Assembly (NCBI GenBank): GCA_038858525.1
Contig: JAWCFL010000009.1
Span: 19,937-51,936 of the forward strand
Reading direction: 5' to 3'
From: Candidatus Jordarchaeales archaeon
GTDB lineage: Archaea > Asgardarchaeota > Jordiarchaeia > Jordiarchaeales > Freyrarchaeaceae
Length of the DNA stretch: 32,000 nucleotides
The first letter of the stretch is position 1. The number at the start of each line of letters is the position of its first letter. Below, piece by piece: positions 1 to 7,815 of the stretch. A model generated the notes under the pieces. It was not told the DNA's origin, did not search any database, and worked only from the letters and a program-made list of their open reading frames with translations. The position numbers and the translations under genes were made by a program.

Positions 1-1435
1 CCACCACGAACTCAAGCCCCCTTTCCCCGCCACGCAACCTTTCCGAGCTAATCTCCTTATTGAAGACGCCGGTGACATCAATTAATCCCGCCTTCAGCGC
101 TTCCGCCAGAAAGTCCACCATGGCTGAGCCGCATATTCCGCGAGGCTTCCCGCCATCTATAGTCCTGTATTCAACCTCAAGGTCCTCTTTTATGCTTATC
201 CTCTCGATAGCTCCAGTGGCCGCCCTCATTCCGTGCCTTATATGTGCCCCCTCGAATGCTGGGCCCGAGGCGCAGGAGCACGCCAGTATCTCCTCCTTAT
301 TTCCCAAGATGACCTCCGTGTTCGTTCCAATATCTATTGCTAAACATATCTCGTCTCTTTTGTAGATCTCCGTTGCCAGTAGCACCCCTGTGGTGTCGGC
401 GCCCACGAATCCCCCTATAATGGGGAGAAAGTAAACGTTGCCGCTCGGGTTAATTTTCACTCCGAGACTACGAGCGGTGACGTTTACACCCTTTCTATTG
501 GCGGGCGTATAAGGTGACAAAGCTAGATACCTTGGACAGATGCCTAAGGCAAGATGATGCATTGCAGTGTTGCCAACAGCGACCATCTCGTACACTTCTT
601 CTCTCTTCACGCCAGTCTTTTCCAGGAGGGAGCCAAGTATTTGGTTTATAGCGCCAATAACGGCCCTTTGAAGCCTTCTCTGTTCTCTTGACCCCCTAGA
701 TGCATACGTGATCCGAGCTATGACGTCCTCACCATAAGGTATCTGTGGATTCATCAAGGAGTCAACGGCGACAACCCGTCCACTGGAAAGGTCAAGCAGG
801 TATCCGGCGAGCTTAGTTGTTCCTATGTCGACAGCATAACCAAACATCCTCCTGGTCGTGTCACCAGCCTCCACACTTATAATCCTATCATTCCACAAAA
901 CGACTGTCACGTTCCACCCCTTCCTTCTGAGAATCGCCGGCATAACCTGTAAAGCATGAAAGTCGATATCCACGCTTTGAAGCCCCTTCTGGCGCCTTAA
1001 CTCGTCCAGCAGTATTTCGGCGTCAGGTCGGGGGTCGCTGAGAGACGGCTTCGACAGCTTTAGAAAATACTTACGCAGTGGAGGATTCAACTTTACCAGT
1101 GTTTCTATTCCCTCAACCTGAAGCCGTTGCCGCCCCGTCCTACTCTCCTCAGGTATCTTAACGGTAACTGGGCCATTAATCACCGTGCAGCACGCCAGCC
1201 TATACCCCTCAGCGATCTCGGCGGAGGAAAGTTTCTTTTTCTCTTTTTCAGTTAGGGGTGAAATGTTTCTCCTATCTTCAATCACCACCTTACACTTTCC
1301 ACATATCCCTCTACCACCGCATATCGATGTGAGATCTACGCCTGCAAGTTTAGCTATTTCTAGCAGGTTTTCGCCGAGCTTTATGGGAACACGCTTCCCC
1401 TCCGGTTGAAAAACAACGCTTCCCTCCTTAGACAT
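1..1435 (-). CDS. Corrinoid reductive activator, RACo/ASKHA (DUF4445) type with N-terminal [2Fe-2S] domain; 3' end runs off the window
   Basis: Absent from the ORF track because it has no stop in the window. Manual translation from ATG 1435 gives MSKEGSVVFQPEGKRV...SICGGRGICGKCKV...GYRLACC (2Fe-2S), YAVDIGTTKLAGYL and AIDIGTNTE (ASKHA phosphate loops), and CASGPAFEGAHIRHGMRA. RBS-like GGTGGAG upstream. Confidence 0.93.
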   Translation of the reverse strand, partial: MSKEGSVVFQPEGKRVPIKLGENLLEIAKLAGVDLTSICGGRGICGKCKVVIEDRRNISPLTEKEKKKLSSAEIAEGYRLACCTVINGPVTVKIPEESRTGRQRLQVEGIETLVKLNPPLRKYFLKLSKPSLSDPRPDAEILLDELRRQKGLQSVDIDFHALQVMPAILRRKGWNVTVVLWNDRIISVEAGDTTRRMFGYAVDIGTTKLAGYLLDLSSGRVVAVDSLMNPQIPYGEDVIARITYASRGSREQRRLQRAVIGAINQILGSLLEKTGVKREEVYEMVAVGNTAMHHLALGICPRYLALSPYTPANRKGVNVTARSLGVKINPSGNVYFLPIIGGFVGADTTGVLLATEIYKRDEICLAIDIGTNTEVILGNKEEILACSCASGPAFEGAHIRHGMRAATGAIERISIKEDLEVEYRTIDGGKPRGICGSAMVDFLAEALKAGLIDVTGVFNKEISSERLRGGERGLEFVV

Positions 1436-1605: not shown

Positions 1606-1637
1606 TGACCTAAGATGATTGAAGTTGGGTGAGGAGG

Positions 1638-3143
1638 ATGCCTAGAACAGGTGTTCCTTTACCATCAAGGAATCGATTATGGAGAGTGCTGGATAGGGAG
1701 GAGCTGGAGATAATAGACGCGGCGGCTTACAAGATCCTAAAGGATGTCGGCGTCTTCATCGATGACAATGAGCTGTTGAAGATGGCGGAGGAGATGGGTT
1801 GTAGCGTTAACTATGAAAAGAAGATCGTTACGGACATACCGGAACACGTTGTCAGGGAGCAGGTTCGTAAGGCGCCTAGAAGTTTTCTTCTAGCTGGAAG
1901 GGACCCTGAATGGGACGTCGAAGTCGAGGGGCCAGCGCGCAGGCAGTACTGGGCTCCGGAGAGCGGTGCAACGGACGTCCTCGTGTGGGATGAAAAAAGC
2001 AGGAAGTATTATCGTAGGAGGGCAAGCTCGAAGGACACGCTCTACGCCGCGAAAATCGTGGATGGAATCGATGACTTCGACGTTAACGTGTACATATATG
2101 ATGCAGCGGAGGAGGGACATCAAGGGTTGCCCTCAGAGCTTAACAAGATGAACGCGATGCTTCAGGGAACTACGAAGTGGGCGGGGCACCTTTGTACGAC
2201 GGTCTCAACAATAGAGGAGTACGATTACGTTGAGAAACTAGCCGCTGAGGTAGCTGGAGGAGAAGAGGAGTTAAGAAAAAGGCCGCTGTTCTGGACTGTT
2301 TACAACTACATTGGTACTTTGCAGCTAAACAGGTTTAACAGTTGGCTGCTTCGAGCATCCATAAAGTACCATTGGCCCATAATGCCTGCTGTAACCGCAG
2401 CTGCGCCGCTCATGGGGCCGGCTATGGCTGCCGGGAACACCGCTATCTCGCACGCGGGAATACTCTTCATGACAGCCCTCAAACAGTTCCACGATCCCGG
2501 AGCAGCAGTGGTTCCAAACAACATAGTTTTTAGTCTAGACCCCATGACGGGAAGGGGAGGAGCGCATGTTCCACACTTCATGCTGGGGACGTGCGCCATG
2601 AATCAGCTGTGGCATGAGCTTTACGGGCTCCCAACAGCACAGTATGGAGGAACTTTCGCCGCAAGCCTCGACCAACAAGCCTTCAACCTTGCAAGATACT
2701 TGACGCTACAAGTCATTTCCGGGACGGATTTCATATTTGAGCAATGTGGAGGCGAAGCCTTCGACCCGGCGCTGATACCCATCTGCGCCGAAATAGCAAG
2801 GATGGGTAGAACCCTCATGTCCACCTTCCATCAGATCTACCCAACACCTGAAAACCTTGCCCTTGACGTTGCTAAGGAAGTGGGCGCCAAGGGCGAGAAG
2901 TGGATGACGCACAAATACAACCTTGACCGCCTTAAAATGTTCCCGTCAGGCTTCTGCCTGGACACTGACGCCTTCGACACGTGGCTCGGAAAGGGGGCGC
3001 GCTCATGGGTTTACGACCTCTGCAGGGAGAAGTTGAAAGAGCTGGAGAAGCATGAGCCAAAGCCGCTACCTAAAGATGTCGTTGAACGAATGAACGCCAT
3101 AGTCAAGGAAGGAAACGAGAAATTGAGGGTGAGAGTGGGATGA
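1638..3143 (+). CDS. Trimethylamine methyltransferase (MttB) superfamily MT1, pyrrolysine-free
   Basis: MttB-like N-terminus (LDREELEIIDAAAYKILKDVGV, VRKAPRSFLLAGRDPEWD) and C-terminus (FDTWLGKG...KELEKHEPKPLPKDV). No in-frame TAG. ATG 1638 follows RBS GGTGAGGAGG; the ORF track starts at GTG 1629. Confidence 0.88.
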   Translation: MPRTGVPLPSRNRLWRVLDREELEIIDAAAYKILKDVGVFIDDNELLKMAEEMGCSVNYEKKIVTDIPEHVVREQVRKAPRSFLLAGRDPEWDVEVEGPARRQYWAPESGATDVLVWDEKSRKYYRRRASSKDTLYAAKIVDGIDDFDVNVYIYDAAEEGHQGLPSELNKMNAMLQGTTKWAGHLCTTVSTIEEYDYVEKLAAEVAGGEEELRKRPLFWTVYNYIGTLQLNRFNSWLLRASIKYHWPIMPAVTAAAPLMGPAMAAGNTAISHAGILFMTALKQFHDPGAAVVPNNIVFSLDPMTGRGGAHVPHFMLGTCAMNQLWHELYGLPTAQYGGTFAASLDQQAFNLARYLTLQVISGTDFIFEQCGGEAFDPALIPICAEIARMGRTLMSTFHQIYPTPENLALDVAKEVGAKGEKWMTHKYNLDRLKMFPSGFCLDTDAFDTWLGKGARSWVYDLCREKLKELEKHEPKPLPKDVVERMNAIVKEGNEKLRVRVG

Positions 3144-3832
3144 GCGTTAATAAGGAGGTAATTTTGAAGAAGCTAGCTGAGGCGGTCATAAACTTCGACG
3201 AAGCGGCTGCCATGGCTGCAGTAAGTGAAGCCATATCCGCCCAAATAGACCCGGTAGAAGCAATCACGAGAGGACTCACAGCCGGAATAAAGGAAGTCGG
3301 CGACAAGTTTGGCAGAGGCGAAATCCCGCTGCCCTTCCTGATGCTCGCCGCGCAAGTCATGGAAAAAGCGACGAACGAGCTCCTCAAATACGTGCCGGAG
3401 GACAAAAGGCCAGAGCCACTCGGCGTAATGGTATTAGGAACAGTCGAAGGAGACATCCACAACTTGGGAACAAACATCGTTACGGCAGTGTTTACCGCGG
3501 CAGGATTCAAAGTGTACAACATTGGTGTGGACCAGCCGGTGGAGAACTTCATAAAGAAGGCTGAAGAGGTCAACGCGGACATCATAGGTGCCTCCGCATT
3601 GATGAGCAACACTCTTCAACAGCAAAAGTTCTTGGGCGAAGCCCTGAAAAAGAGGGGCATCAGGGACAAGTACATCTACATGGTGGGTGGCGGGGCATTC
3701 CCAGGCGAAGAGTGGTGCAGAGAGTGCGGAGCCGACGACTACGCCACAGACGTAATGATAGCTCTCGAAAAAGCCAAGAACCTTCTTGCAGAACGAAAGG
3801 GAAGGAAAACAAAAACAGCAAAAAGAAAGTAA
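3140..3832 (+). CDS. Methyltransferase cognate corrinoid protein (MttC/MtaC-like, B12-binding)
   Basis: Cap domain plus GTVEGDIHNLG (DxHxxG), GASALM and YMVGGG. ATGA overlap with the MT1 stop indicates translational coupling. Confidence 0.93.
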   Translation: MSVNKEVILKKLAEAVINFDEAAAMAAVSEAISAQIDPVEAITRGLTAGIKEVGDKFGRGEIPLPFLMLAAQVMEKATNELLKYVPEDKRPEPLGVMVLGTVEGDIHNLGTNIVTAVFTAAGFKVYNIGVDQPVENFIKKAEEVNADIIGASALMSNTLQQQKFLGEALKKRGIRDKYIYMVGGGAFPGEEWCRECGADDYATDVMIALEKAKNLLAERKGRKTKTAKRK

Positions 3833-3866: not shown

Positions 3867-5585
3867 CTAATCTGAGACCGGGCATAATCCTGTCAGTTTT
3901 TTACTTACCTCGCTGAGCTCCTCCTCTTCTTTTAGTACTTTCCTGATTTTTTCGTCGAGCACTCGTTTTCTTTCCTTCATTTTTGCCTCGTCCATTTTTC
4001 TTACTTCGCTCATTTTCGCGACGACTGCGTCGTCCACCCGCAGGATCATAGTAGCGAACTCGTATGCCGCCATGATCGCGCGCCGCTTAACTTCAAAAAC
4101 GTCAAATAATCCATTTTCGACTGTGTCGACAATTTCACGATTGACGGCGTCAACCCCAAAGTTCCTGTTTCCGCCAGCGTGTTTAGCTTGCAGCTCTGGC
4201 AAAACGTCGTTAGCCTTAAGCCCAGCGTTGTCAGCGAGCATCTTTGGAATGGCTTCGATCGCCCTTGCAAACGCCTCTATAGCTAGTTGTTCTTTCCCTA
4301 TAAAGGACCTCGAAAACCTCCTTAGTTCCCTAGAAACTTCAACTTCGGTAGCACCGCCACCCGGCAAAATTTTCCCTCCCTTAGCTGCAAGGGACAGGGC
4401 TTTAACCCCGTTCTTAATGGTTCTCTCAAGTTCTTCGACAACCTCCACGGTTCCCCCCCTTAACAACAGCGTCACGGCGGTCGAGTTCCCGCAGCATTCT
4501 AGGAAAAGCATTTCGTCGCCGGCAACTTTTCGGAATTCTACAAGCTTCGCGAAGCCTAAGTCTCCCCCCGTTAAGTCCTTCACGTATGAGACGATTCTCC
4601 CTCCGGTCGCCCTTGCAAGCCTAGCCATGTCCTTCTCTGAAACAAGTTCAAACGCCAAAACACCCTCCCTTGCAAAGTAATCAACTAACCTTTCACTAAT
4701 CCTTTTACGGCAAAAAACAACGGATGCCCCCGCACTCTTCACTCTACTTACAATATCCCCATAGATCTCTTTCTCCCCATCGATAAAAGTTGCTAGTTGC
4801 TCTCTCCTGTCAACCAAATACTCCTTTTTCCATTCATCGCTTTTTCGCAGGAAAGGATGAAGCGAGCAGTTCAGCAATGCAACCTTCACATTAGTCATCT
4901 TGTCCGGCATCTTTGGATGAGGTTTCCCTCTGTTTATAACTACTCCACAAAACAATTCAGAGGCATTTACATCGCAACCCGTTTTCTTGACAAAACAGAC
5001 CCTATCTTCAACGGGCATTCCTTCCGTTTTTTCTGCAGAGACAAGCCTAACCGCTTTGACAATCAGATCAGCAACGTATTCTTGGACGTTCCCGCTGAAG
5101 CTGCTTCCGAGAAAAGTCCTCGCGACACTTTTCATAAGCACATCGTTCTCGGTTGAAAAGCTGATCGCGAGCGCCTCCAGAACCTCCATGGCTTTACTAG
5201 CTGCCTTTCTGTACCCCTCAGCTATAGTTGTAGCGTGAATTTTTTGGTCCAGCAGTTTCTCAGCCTCTCTCAGCAATGCTCCTGTAAGTATCACGACGGT
5301 CTTCGTTCCATCACCGGCAAATTCACTCTGAGTCCTAGCGACGCCTATTAAGCCTCTAGCGACGGGATGAGAAACCCTCAGCCTCTCCAGCATTGCCCTC
5401 CCGTTGCTCGTCACGAACACATCCCCTGTCTCAGCAACCATCATTTTGCTCATTCCCATAGGACCAAGCATGGTCCTCAGGATCTCGGATATAACTACTG
5501 CAACAGCAATGTTCGTCCTCCTAACATCCCTCCATCTACTATAACCTCTAGATAGAACCGAAGTCAACTCACCGCTCAGCGCCAT
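3867..5585 (-). CDS. Divergent group II chaperonin (thermosome/TCP-1 family), predicted hydrolysis-deficient
   Basis: LGPMGMSKM, GDGTKT, LRGGT, PGGGATE, NAG and ATMILRVDD motifs; both catalytic Asp positions read as Asn. Confidence 0.92.
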   Translation of the reverse strand: MALSGELTSVLSRGYSRWRDVRRTNIAVAVVISEILRTMLGPMGMSKMMVAETGDVFVTSNGRAMLERLRVSHPVARGLIGVARTQSEFAGDGTKTVVILTGALLREAEKLLDQKIHATTIAEGYRKAASKAMEVLEALAISFSTENDVLMKSVARTFLGSSFSGNVQEYVADLIVKAVRLVSAEKTEGMPVEDRVCFVKKTGCDVNASELFCGVVINRGKPHPKMPDKMTNVKVALLNCSLHPFLRKSDEWKKEYLVDRREQLATFIDGEKEIYGDIVSRVKSAGASVVFCRKRISERLVDYFAREGVLAFELVSEKDMARLARATGGRIVSYVKDLTGGDLGFAKLVEFRKVAGDEMLFLECCGNSTAVTLLLRGGTVEVVEELERTIKNGVKALSLAAKGGKILPGGGATEVEVSRELRRFSRSFIGKEQLAIEAFARAIEAIPKMLADNAGLKANDVLPELQAKHAGGNRNFGVDAVNREIVDTVENGLFDVFEVKRRAIMAAYEFATMILRVDDAVVAKMSEVRKMDEAKMKERKRVLDEKIRKVLKEEEELSEVSKKLTGLCPVSD

Positions 5586-5638
5586 CCTGATCCCCCAAAA
5601 AGGAAAGAAACATTATTCTGAATCAAGAACTATACCCC

Positions 5639-6556
5639 TTATTCTATTGTGGCTATTTTGTTAAGGTTGTAGAATGGATGATTGGCTGCCGGCTTAACAC
5701 CCCACTCTTGCCATGAGGTATACGCCGCGTAAGCGTTCGCAAGCGCTACGACAGGATATATCTTCGCCGCGTTCTGTATTGGGCCATACAAGAGAAAGTC
5801 TGCACCCATTATTACAGGTATAAGGTTCGCCAGAATAGTGCCCGAGAACCTTACACTCGGACTCAATTTTGTACGCTTGCGCCAGATGTCGATGGCGTTA
5901 TGCGCGCCACAACCCGCCGGGTAACCATACTTTTCCTTGACCAAATAAATCGCCTTAGATACAGGGCCAGGGTCTAGAATATCAAAAATAGCTGTATCTA
6001 TAAGGACGTTTTCCACGCCCGCAGCTGAAGACTTACGTAGTAACTCGTCAATCACCTCGAATTTCCCACTAAGAAGCGGGTTCCTAGTGTTAAGAAGCAG
6101 TAACACTGCAGACTTAATTCCGGCATCCTTGAGCGCGCGAAGCTCGTCTTCTTTTATTTCTGGGCTAATAGAATTATATATGACACGCTTTGACAATCCA
6201 GTCTCCATAACATATCTGGATCCCGCCATCCTAACATCAGCCGTCGTCCCATCAATACAAAAAGGCCCCTCCACCACGTCAGCCACGAAATCGATAAATC
6301 TCTCAAACGCCTTAGGATAAGAAGCGCAAACATCCACGATTCGTGGATTCCCTGTTCTAAGAGATATCTCCTCCTCCTTCATCAACACTTCCTCAGCAGC
6401 GGCTTTGTCGAAAACACCCTCCCTCTCATCCGTGACAAGCTTATCGCCATGATAGAAAATGGTTCCAATCATTACTGTGGGAACTTGCCCCGGCTGGCCG
6501 CCAATCCTAATACCAGCGATATTAAACGTTTTTTGCTCCACCCCAAACTTGAACAT
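5639..6556 (-). CDS. mtrH: MtrH-family methylcorrinoid:tetrahydropterin methyltransferase (MT2)
   Basis: MFKFGVEQKTFNIAGIRIGGQPGQVPTVMIGTIFY, GCGAHNA and GADFLLYGPI are MtrH signatures. ATG 6556 follows GGAGTGAGGTGG. No other mtr subunits adjacent, so it is a stand-alone MtrH-like paralog. Confidence 0.88.
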   Translation of the reverse strand: MFKFGVEQKTFNIAGIRIGGQPGQVPTVMIGTIFYHGDKLVTDEREGVFDKAAAEEVLMKEEEISLRTGNPRIVDVCASYPKAFERFIDFVADVVEGPFCIDGTTADVRMAGSRYVMETGLSKRVIYNSISPEIKEDELRALKDAGIKSAVLLLLNTRNPLLSGKFEVIDELLRKSSAAGVENVLIDTAIFDILDPGPVSKAIYLVKEKYGYPAGCGAHNAIDIWRKRTKLSPSVRFSGTILANLIPVIMGADFLLYGPIQNAAKIYPVVALANAYAAYTSWQEWGVKPAANHPFYNLNKIATIE

Positions 6557-6788
6557 TAAAGCCACCTCACTCCTTCCTTACACCCTCGACCCCGCACCTA
6601 TCATCATTGATCATTTTTCCACTCACACCTTCAAGAGGAGAAAGCAAAGTCAAATAAAGCTTAAGATCAAAACATCCACTCATTTATTAACAAATAAGAG
6701 CTCTAAGTTTTTCTTTTTTAGTCCTATTTGATCAAGAAATTATACTTTCTAGAACCAATGTGACCATCAAAAATACATGGGAAAACTC

Positions 6789-7490
6789 TTATAACATGTA
6801 GATTTTCGAGGTGCAGTAGGGCTTGTCAAACTCTAACAAGGCGTAATCCCACTCGTAGCCTGTGACGCCCCTGAAATACCTGCACATTCCAGAAGACGCC
6901 GGGCAATATGGTCTACCATCCACCCTCCTAAGGCCTTCATTCAACATCTGCCTACAAACATCTATAAAGTAACAATTTATGAAGAACATGTCTAGTGTTC
7001 CGTCATCATTCACTCTATAACCGCTTCCATCATTGGGGTTAATCTTCAAACTTCGCGTCATCTTATTCATGTCCAAAAGAACTTTTTCTACGTCAATTTT
7101 CACGTCTCGTCTCGCACCCCCAACGAACCCTTTAGCCCATTTAAGTTCACTTATCTGGATTGCGGCTCCGATACTGCCCTGAAGCTCAACCTCCGCTCTG
7201 ATCTCGGCATAAAGTAATGCGCAGTATGGTCTAGGATACTTCCCCATTATCGACATCAAATACCCTGCCAGCTGCTCTAGCGTTTCGATGTCACTGGGCG
7301 CACGCTCACCAGTTTTACCAGAAATAAATTTCAGCGCGTACTCGACGGCTTTTTTGGAAAAAACCGAGCCGTAAACCTCTTCATTGCTTTTTATTCCGGC
7401 AATAAGTACTCTAACTAGCATATCAGGATCCAATGGCTCGTTTTCCAGAATCCGGAATCCCATCTCCTTAAACTTCTCCATAAAGCTCAT
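6789..7490 (-). CDS. Hypothetical protein with a C-terminal Cys-containing V4R/MetOD1-like domain
   Basis: Long clean ORF with RBS GGTGGA before ATG 7490; C-terminal pattern NCYFIDVC...YCP...C...YC. The fold call is a tentative visual match. Confidence 0.55.
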   Translation of the reverse strand: MSFMEKFKEMGFRILENEPLDPDMLVRVLIAGIKSNEEVYGSVFSKKAVEYALKFISGKTGERAPSDIETLEQLAGYLMSIMGKYPRPYCALLYAEIRAEVELQGSIGAAIQISELKWAKGFVGGARRDVKIDVEKVLLDMNKMTRSLKINPNDGSGYRVNDDGTLDMFFINCYFIDVCRQMLNEGLRRVDGRPYCPASSGMCRYFRGVTGYEWDYALLEFDKPYCTSKIYML

Positions 7491-7815
7491 GTTTTCCACC
7501 TTCCAAATTTATAGAAACGTGCAAGAGATATGTTTCTTTCTCAAAGAATATAAAAATTATTTGTATTAAAAAATAGAAATTCGGAAAATACTGTTAGATC
7601 GTCTCTTAGCAGAATGCCTAAGTTGGAAGCAGAAGAAATACTATTGGGGAGAACAAGGAAATTAACTTGCTTCCAGCTTTGAGAACATTCGGGAAGCTGA
7701 ACAAGCCCTTTCATAAAAGGAGAACAATTAGGAGGTAAACGGCATATCTTCACAAACATAAAGCATATTTTATTTAAACTCTAATAAACTTTAAACTATT
7801 ATTTGAGCGTATAGA

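What the first reader, a model, noticed from the sequence alone, without database searches (positions are those of the whole stretch)
3867..5585. Thermosome paralog with both catalytic aspartates replaced by Asn, beside a methyltransferase gene
Seen: (T/S)NDG reads TSNG (AAC at 5403-5405), GDGTTT reads GDGTKT (5301-5303) and ERALxDA reads ERTIKNG (4410-4412), while other nucleotide-binding motifs and the full-length ORF are intact. Established: these two Asp (GroEL D52/D398 equivalents) activate the hydrolytic water, and D-to-N/A mutants are ATPase-dead. Inference: two independent conservative D-to-N changes suggest selection for a non-hydrolysing subunit, holdase or assembly scaffold, loosely analogous to eukaryotic BBS chaperonin-like proteins. 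It lies 54 bp downstream of an mtrH-like gene on the same strand, so it may serve methyltransferase assembly.
Basis: partly seen in the sequence, partly recalled or inferred. Interest (0 to 1): 0.72.

Follow-up and report, generated by a model that had tools for sequence, protein, structure and literature searches.

The report
Methyltransferase-linked thermosome paralog without catalytic aspartates
An Asgard archaeon from hot springs carries a second, intact copy of the protein-folding cage (thermosome) that has lost the residues needed to split ATP, and it belongs to a small, unnamed chaperonin family that almost always sits inside vitamin-B12 methyltransferase gene clusters, so it is probably a private helper of that pathway.

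Summary
ORF 3867-5585(-) encodes a full-length 572-aa group II chaperonin that reads TSNG, GDGTKT and ERTIKNG. A third ATPase residue, the nucleotide-sensing-loop Lys, is also lost (Ser162).

This is not error or decay:
- An independent hot-spring assembly carries the same codons.
- Orthologs at 77, 72 and 59% identity keep Asn392.
- dN/dS is 0.08-0.17.

The N/N pair is not the defining feature. The gene belongs to a distinct chaperonin family marked by GDGTKT and a charged C-terminal helix of about 50 aa. A strongly supported branch separates it from canonical thermosomes of all archaeal phyla. The family occurs in Asgard archaea and Thermoproteota (Methanomethylicus). It lost one or both catalytic Asp several times.

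Of 25 distinct family loci, 20 lie within 5 kb of RACo, corrinoid-protein, MttB, MtrH or MtaA-like genes. Only 2 of 75 canonical thermosome loci do.

Best reading: a dedicated chaperone of the corrinoid methyltransferase system that binds ATP but hydrolyses it poorly. The client and the oligomeric state are unknown.

I found no paper describing this. The scan met the same family earlier on other genomes (e1-5424045, e1-5424044, e1-4831427).

The parts
3867..5585 (-). K-type group II chaperonin paralog (P0001, 572 aa)
   Evidence: Pfam Cpn60_TCP1 1.7e-145. NCBIfam thermosome_alpha 512 bits against a cut-off of 450, but below the TIGR02339 cut-off (501 vs 671). AF2 model pLDDT 84; Foldseek TM 0.9 to Mm-cpn and KS-1 subunits.
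5403..5405 (-). Asn61 codon (AAC) in place of the stem-loop catalytic Asp (TNDG reads TSNG)
   Evidence: Orthologs have N, N, S, N.
5301..5303 (-). Lys95 codon: phosphate loop reads GDGTKT instead of GDGTT(T/S), the family signature
   Evidence: Invariant in 40 family members; Thr in all canonical thermosomes aligned; the tree needs only one change of state.
5100..5102 (-). Ser162 codon in place of the nucleotide-sensing-loop Lys (KS-1 Lys165)
   Evidence: The role of the Lys is described in PMC5635000.
4410..4412 (-). Asn392 codon (AAC) in place of the catalytic Asp (Mm-cpn D386 / GroEL D398 equivalent)
   Evidence: Asn in all four orthologs, with AAC/AAT codon variation.
3870..4037 (-). Charged C-terminal extension (residues 517-572), predicted as one long helix. 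It replaces the short Gly/Met- or Glu-rich tail of canonical thermosomes.
   Evidence: helix H517-566, pLDDT 55-80. The full tail was found in only one order among 400 Asgard genomes.
5586..5638 (-). 53-nt spacer between mtrH-like gene and chaperonin, with GGGGGAT 5-11 nt before the ATG
   Evidence: The equivalent spacers in orthologous loci are 14-92 nt.
5639..6565 (-). MtrH-family methyl-corrinoid:pterin methyltransferase gene, upstream on the same strand
   Evidence: Pfam MtrH 5.5e-81; NCBIfam NF002142 299 bits against a cut-off of 287.
3140..3832 (+). Corrinoid (B12-binding) protein gene, convergent with the chaperonin (34-nt gap)
   Evidence: Pfam B12-binding and B12-binding_2. 90-93% identical in orthologous loci.
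1629..3143 (+). Pyl-free MttB-superfamily methyltransferase gene
   Evidence: Pfam MTTB 2.9e-34.
2..1435 (-). RACo-type reductive activator of corrinoid proteins (cut by the window edge)
   Evidence: Pfam Fer2, RACo_linker, Raco_middle and RACo_C_ter.
6789..7499 (-). 236-aa ORF of no known family upstream of mtrH, conserved in orthologous loci

Best explanation
The gene encodes a specialised group II chaperonin paralog. I call its family K-type, for the GDGTKT phosphate loop; members also carry a long charged C-terminal helix. It serves the corrinoid (B12) methyltransferase system encoded around it: MttB-family methyltransferase, corrinoid protein, RACo activator and MtrH.

In this lineage three residues are replaced: the two Asp that activate the hydrolytic water and the sensing-loop Lys that contacts the gamma-phosphate. 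The Mg/phosphate and base-binding motifs remain. The protein therefore most likely still binds ATP but hydrolyses it very slowly or not at all. Group II rings close on hydrolysis, so it should dwell in the open, client-binding state. It would act as a holdase or assembly platform rather than a cycling folding cage.

My preferred client step is keeping the apo-corrinoid protein, or the TIM-barrel methyltransferases, competent for cobamide insertion or complex assembly, alongside RACo.

Shown: fold, family separation, conserved gene neighbourhood, residue replacements, purifying selection.

Inferred: loss of ATPase activity, holdase mode, identity of the client, oligomeric state.
For: Fold and paralogy:
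- Full thermosome fold.
- A canonical paralog with all catalytic residues lies elsewhere in the same genome.

Family separation:
- All GDGTKT proteins lie on one side of a 100* branch (length 0.47) from 41 canonical thermosomes (45 rows in all on that side) of Asgard, Thermoproteota, Euryarchaeota-type and DPANN-type genomes.
- The Lys95 state needs only one change on the tree.

Synteny:
- 23 of 29 K-type loci (20 of 25 distinct ones) have RACo, corrinoid protein, MttB, MtrH or URO-D-type methyltransferase genes within 5 kb, often within 0-150 bp. Only 2 of 75 true canonical loci do (gene tables).
- The link holds down to 28-33% identity, in a divergent Asgard group lying 25-116 bp from RACo by ORF ends.
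- It also holds in Methanomethylicus-type members.

Co-occurrence:
- A related genome, G115, lacks both the chaperonin and this MttB ortholog.
- G118 and G119 keep both, unlinked.

Residue losses are conserved and selected:
- Asn392 is present in all four orthologs with synonymous codon variation.
- dN/dS is 0.08-0.17.
- An independent assembly differs at 10 sites, 9 of them at third codon positions and none in codons 61, 95 or 392.

Mutant precedent:
- Mm-cpn D386A binds ATP, cannot hydrolyse it and stays open (PMC5019054).
- The sensing-loop Lys contacts the gamma-phosphate, and hydrolysis drives closure in group II (PMC5635000).
Against: - There is no biochemical data for any family member.
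- Asn differs from the Ala used in the mutants, and the extra Lys95 beside the phosphates could partly compensate, so residual or altered hydrolysis is not excluded.
- Many family members keep both Asp, so the family's role does not require a dead ATPase.
- One sublineage (four loci) has no methyltransferase genes within 8-10 kb.
- Gene neighbourhood shows association, not the client or the mechanism.
- Mixed rings with the canonical subunit are not excluded.
- The tree is unrooted and was built with the quick search.
Confidence: 0.6

Rival explanations
1. It is simply a second subunit of the housekeeping thermosome. It would form mixed rings with the canonical subunit and act as a low-activity subunit, as some CCT subunits are. 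Its position beside methyltransferase genes would reflect co-regulation, not a dedicated client.
For: - G000 shows only one canonical gene plus this one.
- Many archaea build hetero-oligomeric thermosomes.
- NCBIfam scores it above the thermosome_alpha/beta cut-offs.
- The equatorial and intermediate domains are well conserved.
Against: - The family is absent from most Asgard genomes, which still have canonical thermosomes.
- Sister genomes of the same genus carry two canonical genes plus this one.
- The neighbourhood is conserved over very deep divergence, while canonical genes lack it.
- The 50-aa C-terminal helix would have to fit at the ring equator, where canonical tails are short.
Confidence: 0.2
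2. It is a methyltransferase-dedicated chaperonin that still cycles on ATP. Hydrolysis would be rescued by other residues (for example Lys95 in the phosphate loop) or supplied by neighbouring active subunits.
For: - Lys95 is invariant in the family and sits in the phosphate-binding loop.
- GDG and GGGA are intact.
- Many family members keep both Asp, so the ancestral family function probably used ATP.
Against: - Three separate residues of the catalytic apparatus are gone in this protein.
- Single Asp mutants abolish hydrolysis in Mm-cpn (PMC5019054).
- Repeated independent losses in the family (at least 4 state changes at the first Asp and 8 at the second) suggest that hydrolysis is often dispensable.
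Confidence: 0.15
3. It is a decaying or neutral relic of a duplicated thermosome gene, or the Asn codons are assembly errors.
For: Loss of catalytic residues is what relaxed constraint would produce.
Against: - The reading frame is intact in every ortholog.
- dN/dS is 0.08-0.17.
- The same codons occur in an independent run at depth 60, where 9 of 10 strain-level differences fall at third codon positions.
- The family is conserved across phyla.
Confidence: 0.02

Closest known systems
Archaeal thermosome subunits (group II chaperonin; Mm-cpn of Methanococcus maripaludis, Thermococcus KS-1 alpha, T. acidophilum alpha/beta)
   Same: Same three-domain fold with a built-in lid region. About 40% identity and TM 0.9 to the solved subunits. 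GDG and GGGA nucleotide motifs are present.
   Different: - Both catalytic Asp and the sensing-loop Lys are replaced.
- Lys replaces Thr in the phosphate loop.
- A charged C-terminal helix of about 50 aa replaces the short tail.
- A strongly supported branch separates it from canonical thermosomes of all phyla sampled.
- It is embedded in corrinoid methyltransferase clusters.
Mm-cpn D386A and GroEL D52A/D398A engineered hydrolysis-deficient mutants
   Same: The equivalent Asp positions are altered. The mutants bind ATP but do not hydrolyse it, and Mm-cpn D386A stays open (PMC5019054).
   Different: Here the change is natural, to Asn rather than Ala. It is combined with loss of the sensing-loop Lys and gain of Lys95, and it is maintained by selection.
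Eukaryotic chaperonin-like BBS proteins (MKKS/BBS6, BBS10, BBS12) and low-ATP-affinity CCT subunits
   Same: Chaperonin-fold proteins with degenerate ATP sites that act in assembly of a specific complex rather than in general folding (background knowledge; PMC2846930 is listed).
   Different: An analogy only. This protein is thermosome-like, not CCT-like (thermosome models 501-512 bits, best CCT model 350 bits). It is archaeal, and its context is metabolic (B12 methyl transfer).
RACo/RamA-type activators and other maturation factors of corrinoid enzymes
   Same: Encoded in the same clusters. Both act on corrinoid proteins rather than on the methyl substrate.
   Different: RACo is an ASKHA-fold ATPase with Fe-S clusters that reduces Co(II). 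No chaperonin has been described as part of such systems in the papers I could search.

Membership tests
Group II chaperonin / thermosome | Cpn60_TCP1 domain over the full length, with equatorial-intermediate-apical architecture and a helical-protrusion lid region | tested here: met
   Pfam 32-524 matched to profile 1-489 of 490. AF2 model with Foldseek TM 0.88-0.92 to Mm-cpn, KS-1 and the T. acidophilum thermosome. The lid region has lower confidence (pLDDT about 65).
Group II chaperonin / thermosome | Curated thermosome model cut-offs | tested here: inconclusive
   It passes NF041082 (512 vs 450) and NF041083 (506 vs 400) but fails the TIGR02339 subfamily cut-off (501 vs 671).
Group II chaperonin / thermosome | Catalytic Asp pair (Mm-cpn D60/D386 equivalents) and sensing-loop Lys | tested here: not met
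   Asn61, Asn392 and Ser162 here. All 41 canonical sequences aligned have D, D and K.
Group II chaperonin / thermosome | Phosphate loop GDGTT(T/S) | tested here: not met
   GDGTKT, invariant in the K-type family.
Group II chaperonin / thermosome | Double-ring 16/18-mer with ATP-driven lid closure | not testable with these tools
   This needs native mass measurement or cryo-EM, plus ATPase and closure assays.
K-type, corrinoid-methyltransferase-linked chaperonin family (defined here and in earlier scan notes) | GDGTKT loop, charged C-terminal extension of about 50 aa, placement outside the canonical thermosome clade, and neighbourhood of RACo, corrinoid protein and methyltransferase genes | tested here: met
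   This lineage lacks the terminal HPET-like motif that most other members carry.
Eukaryotic CCT/TRiC subunits or BBS chaperonin-like proteins | Best match to a CCT subunit or BBS family rather than to the thermosome | tested here: not met
   The best CCT model (gamma) scores 350 bits against a cut-off of 553, while the thermosome models score 501-512 bits. The same holds for distant family members.

The most novel reading that the evidence does not exclude
K-type chaperonins are chaperonin-derived maturation factors for corrinoid methyltransferase systems. Working with RACo, they would hold the apo-corrinoid protein (or the TIM-barrel methyltransferases) open for cobamide insertion or complex assembly. 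In several lineages, this one included, they would do so without ATP hydrolysis. That would make them the first client-dedicated group II chaperonin of archaea and a missing B12-loading factor for this enzyme class.
Probability: 0.3. Interest if true: 0.8.

Novelty: new variant of a known kind. Interest (0 to 1): 0.62.

Why it matters
Thermosomes are treated as general, ATP-cycling folding machines, and databases name this protein 'thermosome subunit alpha/beta'.

A separate, phylum-spanning chaperonin family would be a new functional class of group II chaperonin. It is tied to B12 methyltransferase clusters and has repeatedly given up its catalytic residues.

It would also point to an unrecognised maturation step in corrinoid methyl transfer. 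This chemistry underlies methylotrophic methanogenesis and the C1 metabolism proposed for Asgard archaea.

In practice, co-expressing this protein may help produce active recombinant corrinoid proteins, which often need refolding with cobalamin (background knowledge, not checked here).

Annotation pipelines could separate the family with the GDGTKT and tail signature.

Tried and rejected
- Complex prediction of the chaperonin with the neighbouring corrinoid protein gave no answer (score 0.00, controls not run). This is uninformative.
- No RNA run holding the stretch was listed, so co-transcription with mtrH could not be tested.
I used them as synteny controls.
- The CCT-ancestor idea is rejected: all family members tested score much higher on thermosome models than on CCT models.
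- The pseudogene and sequencing-error ideas are rejected.
- MtrH as the specific partner is rejected as too narrow. Many family loci lack MtrH but have RACo, corrinoid protein, MttB or URO-D-type genes.
- Literature searches for a chaperonin in corrinoid methyltransferase clusters found nothing relevant. The Freyarchaeia paper that describes these MttB/MtbC/MtrH clusters does not mention it.
- Only sigma-70-type promoter scanning is on offer, so I did not use it for this archaeon.

Full report
**Observation.** The ORF at 3867-5585 on the minus strand is open and encodes 572 residues. It matches Pfam Cpn60_TCP1 from end to end at 1.7e-145.
- TSNG at residues 59-62, with Asn61 at 5403-5405.
- GDGTKT at residues 91-96, with Lys95 at 5301-5303.
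- ERTIKNG at residues 387-393, with Asn392 at 4410-4412.

HMMER alignment to solved thermosomes puts Asn61 on Asp64 of the Thermococcus KS-1 alpha subunit (Asp60 of Mm-cpn by residue offset). It puts Asn392 on the Asp that precedes Ala in the ER-A-x-x-D-A helix, the Mm-cpn D386 / GroEL D398 equivalent.

The nucleotide-sensing-loop Lys (KS-1 Lys165) is Ser162. GDG (Asp92) and GGGA (409-412) are intact. The spacer to the mtrH-like gene is 53 nt, not 54.

**What it is.** NCBIfam places the protein above the thermosome_alpha and thermosome_beta cut-offs but below the older thermosome subfamily cut-off. CCT models score about 150 bits lower. An AlphaFold2 model built on 40 relatives has mean pLDDT 84. 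It superposes on Mm-cpn, KS-1 and T. acidophilum subunits with target-normalised TM scores near 0.9.

The genome (2.09 Mb, 63 contigs) holds one further chaperonin gene. That copy is canonical (TNDG, GDGTTT, ERALNDA) and 40% identical. The closest database relatives are named Jordarchaeales and Freyarchaeota, which are Asgard archaea. The DNA is held by hot-spring metagenomes from several studies.

**A distinct family.** About forty relatives share two traits that every canonical thermosome in the alignments lacks. One is Lys in the phosphate loop (GDGTKT). The other is a charged C-terminal extension of about 50 residues, which in most members ends in an HPET-like motif. In the model the extension is one long helix, 517-566.

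In a maximum-likelihood tree of 84 sequences (quick search, PMSF model, unrooted), a branch with SH-aLRT support of 100 and length 0.47 sets off a 45-row side that holds all 41 canonical thermosomes, from Asgard, Thermoproteota, Methanobacteriota-type, Thermoplasmatota and DPANN-type genomes. All GDGTKT-plus-tail proteins lie on the other side. The Lys state needs only one change on the tree.

Other findings on the family's extent:
- A very divergent Asgard group (28-33% identity; ITQKG in place of TNDG) lies on a long branch on the same side.
- At 50% clustering, only a handful of clusters in a 1.8-billion-protein library are of this type, so the family is small.
- One subgroup is named Candidatus Methanomethylicus in NCBI records.
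- Among 400 Asgard genomes, the full tail is found only in the window's own order.

**Neighbourhood.** In the window the chaperonin gene is flanked as follows:
- It lies 53 nt downstream of an MtrH-family gene on the same strand.
- It is convergent with a corrinoid-protein gene, 34 nt away.
- That gene follows a Pyl-free MttB-superfamily gene.
- A RACo-type activator lies 2.4 kb away.

The same arrangement is kept in orthologs of 77, 72 and 59% identity. More distant members stand next to RACo, corrinoid protein, MttB, MtrH or URO-D-type (MtaA-like) genes, often with gaps under 150 bp.

I scored all fetched loci by tblastn with the window's own proteins. Of 29 K-type loci with at least 4 kb of flank, 23 have such a gene within 5 kb; counting distinct loci, that is 20 of 25. 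Of 77 other loci, 4 do. Two of those four are really family-related: a truncated ortholog, and a GDGTIT paralog between two RACo genes. That leaves 2 of 75 canonical loci. Relatives are not independent, but the link appears in about nine separate subclades.

The one exception is a Freyarchaeia sublineage. Its genomes keep MttB, corrinoid protein, RACo and MtrH as one block, with the chaperonin elsewhere. A related genome that is 94% complete lacks both the chaperonin and this MttB ortholog.

**The catalytic residues.** All canonical sequences aligned carry Asp, Asp and Lys at the three positions. Within the K-type family the tree needs at least 4 changes of state at the first Asp and 8 at the second. 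Observed pairs include D/D, E/A, G/G, S/D, D/S, K/G and N/N.

The window's protein belongs to a starred five-member clade in which both Asp are gone. Its four Jordarchaeales-type members read N/N, N/N, S/N and N/N. The Asn392 codons are AAC, AAT, AAC and AAC, and the flanking residues vary.

Evidence for selection:
- Pairwise dN/dS is 0.08-0.17, although dS is saturated in the deeper pairs.
- A contig from a different study, at depth 60, covers the whole gene. It differs at 10 sites, 9 of them at third codon positions and none in codons 61, 95 or 392.

Sequencing error and gene decay are therefore excluded.

**How it most likely works.** Mm-cpn D386A binds ATP, cannot hydrolyse it and is locked open (PMC5019054). 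The sensing-loop Lys contacts the gamma-phosphate, and group II rings close on hydrolysis (PMC5635000).

With three such residues replaced but the Mg, phosphate and base motifs kept, this protein should bind nucleotide yet hydrolyse it poorly. It would then stay in the open, client-binding state. Together with the conserved neighbourhood, the best reading is a dedicated holdase or assembly chaperone of the corrinoid methyltransferase system.

The client is not established. Two candidates come from background knowledge:
- The apo-corrinoid protein, whose cobamide is deeply buried.
- The TIM-barrel methyltransferases (MttB, MtrH, MtaA-like).

RACo and the corrinoid protein are the most constant neighbours. 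Whether the protein forms its own rings or mixes with the canonical subunit cannot be told from sequence. A complex prediction with the corrinoid protein gave no answer.

**Comparison and novelty.** The protein works like a thermosome subunit carrying natural versions of the classical hydrolysis-dead mutations. It fails three sequence criteria of a catalytically competent thermosome. It is analogous, not related, to the eukaryotic BBS chaperonin-like proteins.

Full-text searches found no paper that reports a chaperonin in corrinoid methyltransferase clusters. The paper that describes the Freyarchaeia MttB-like/MtbC-like/MtrH clusters does not mention it (PMC11291895). Databases label the family 'thermosome subunit'.

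The scan itself met the family earlier on other genomes and reached a similar reading (e1-5424045, e1-5424044, e1-4831427). I re-derived the evidence independently here.

I rate it a new variant of a known kind. It is of solid interest to chaperonin and C1-metabolism specialists, but it rests on comparative evidence only.

Noticed in passing
G116:C1 near 3112051; G119:C160; G120:C348; proteins P0123, P0124: Freyarchaeia-type genomes and the protein library hold ORFs of about 1050-1090 aa with two Cpn60_TCP1 units, which may be tandem-fused chaperonins.
   Followed up: no
L010:2668-4317: A second unusual chaperonin (549 aa, GDGTIT, both Asp kept) lies between two RACo genes, 3.7 kb upstream of the K-type chaperonin of the same contig.
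   Followed up: partly
L131, L133, L134, L135, L130, L132 (Asgard genomes G191, G276, G130, G129, G153, G123): A very divergent chaperonin-like group (28-33% identity). It has ITQKG in place of TNDG, Gly/Ser/Thr in place of the second Asp, and a charged tail. It lies 25-116 bp from RACo and 1-4 kb from MttB and corrinoid-protein genes.
   Followed up: partly
L137:5979-7897; L140:5466-7312; L019: A MoxR-type AAA+ gene and a VWA gene sit directly beside the K-type chaperonin in three loci. This suggests a larger set of maturation factors in these clusters.
   Followed up: no
window:6789-7499 (-): A 236-aa ORF with no Pfam or NCBIfam match lies upstream of mtrH and is conserved in the orthologous loci L003-L006, L128 and L129.
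   Followed up: partly
L003:10438-11942; L004; G116:C1:875939-877441: The MttB ortholog is called as two overlapping ORFs in L003/L004 and carries one in-frame TAA in G116. This may be a frameshift, an assembly error or recoding.
   Followed up: no
window:3140-3832 versus L003, L005, L007: The corrinoid protein is 90-93% identical between genomes whose neighbouring chaperonins are only 59-77% identical, so the chaperonin evolves much faster than its putative partner.
   Followed up: no
window:27961-32000: Earlier scan notes describe a second corrinoid module in this window (Pyl-free MtmB-like, KstD-like flavoprotein, corrinoid protein, MtrH). The genome has several such systems but only one K-type chaperonin.
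   Followed up: no
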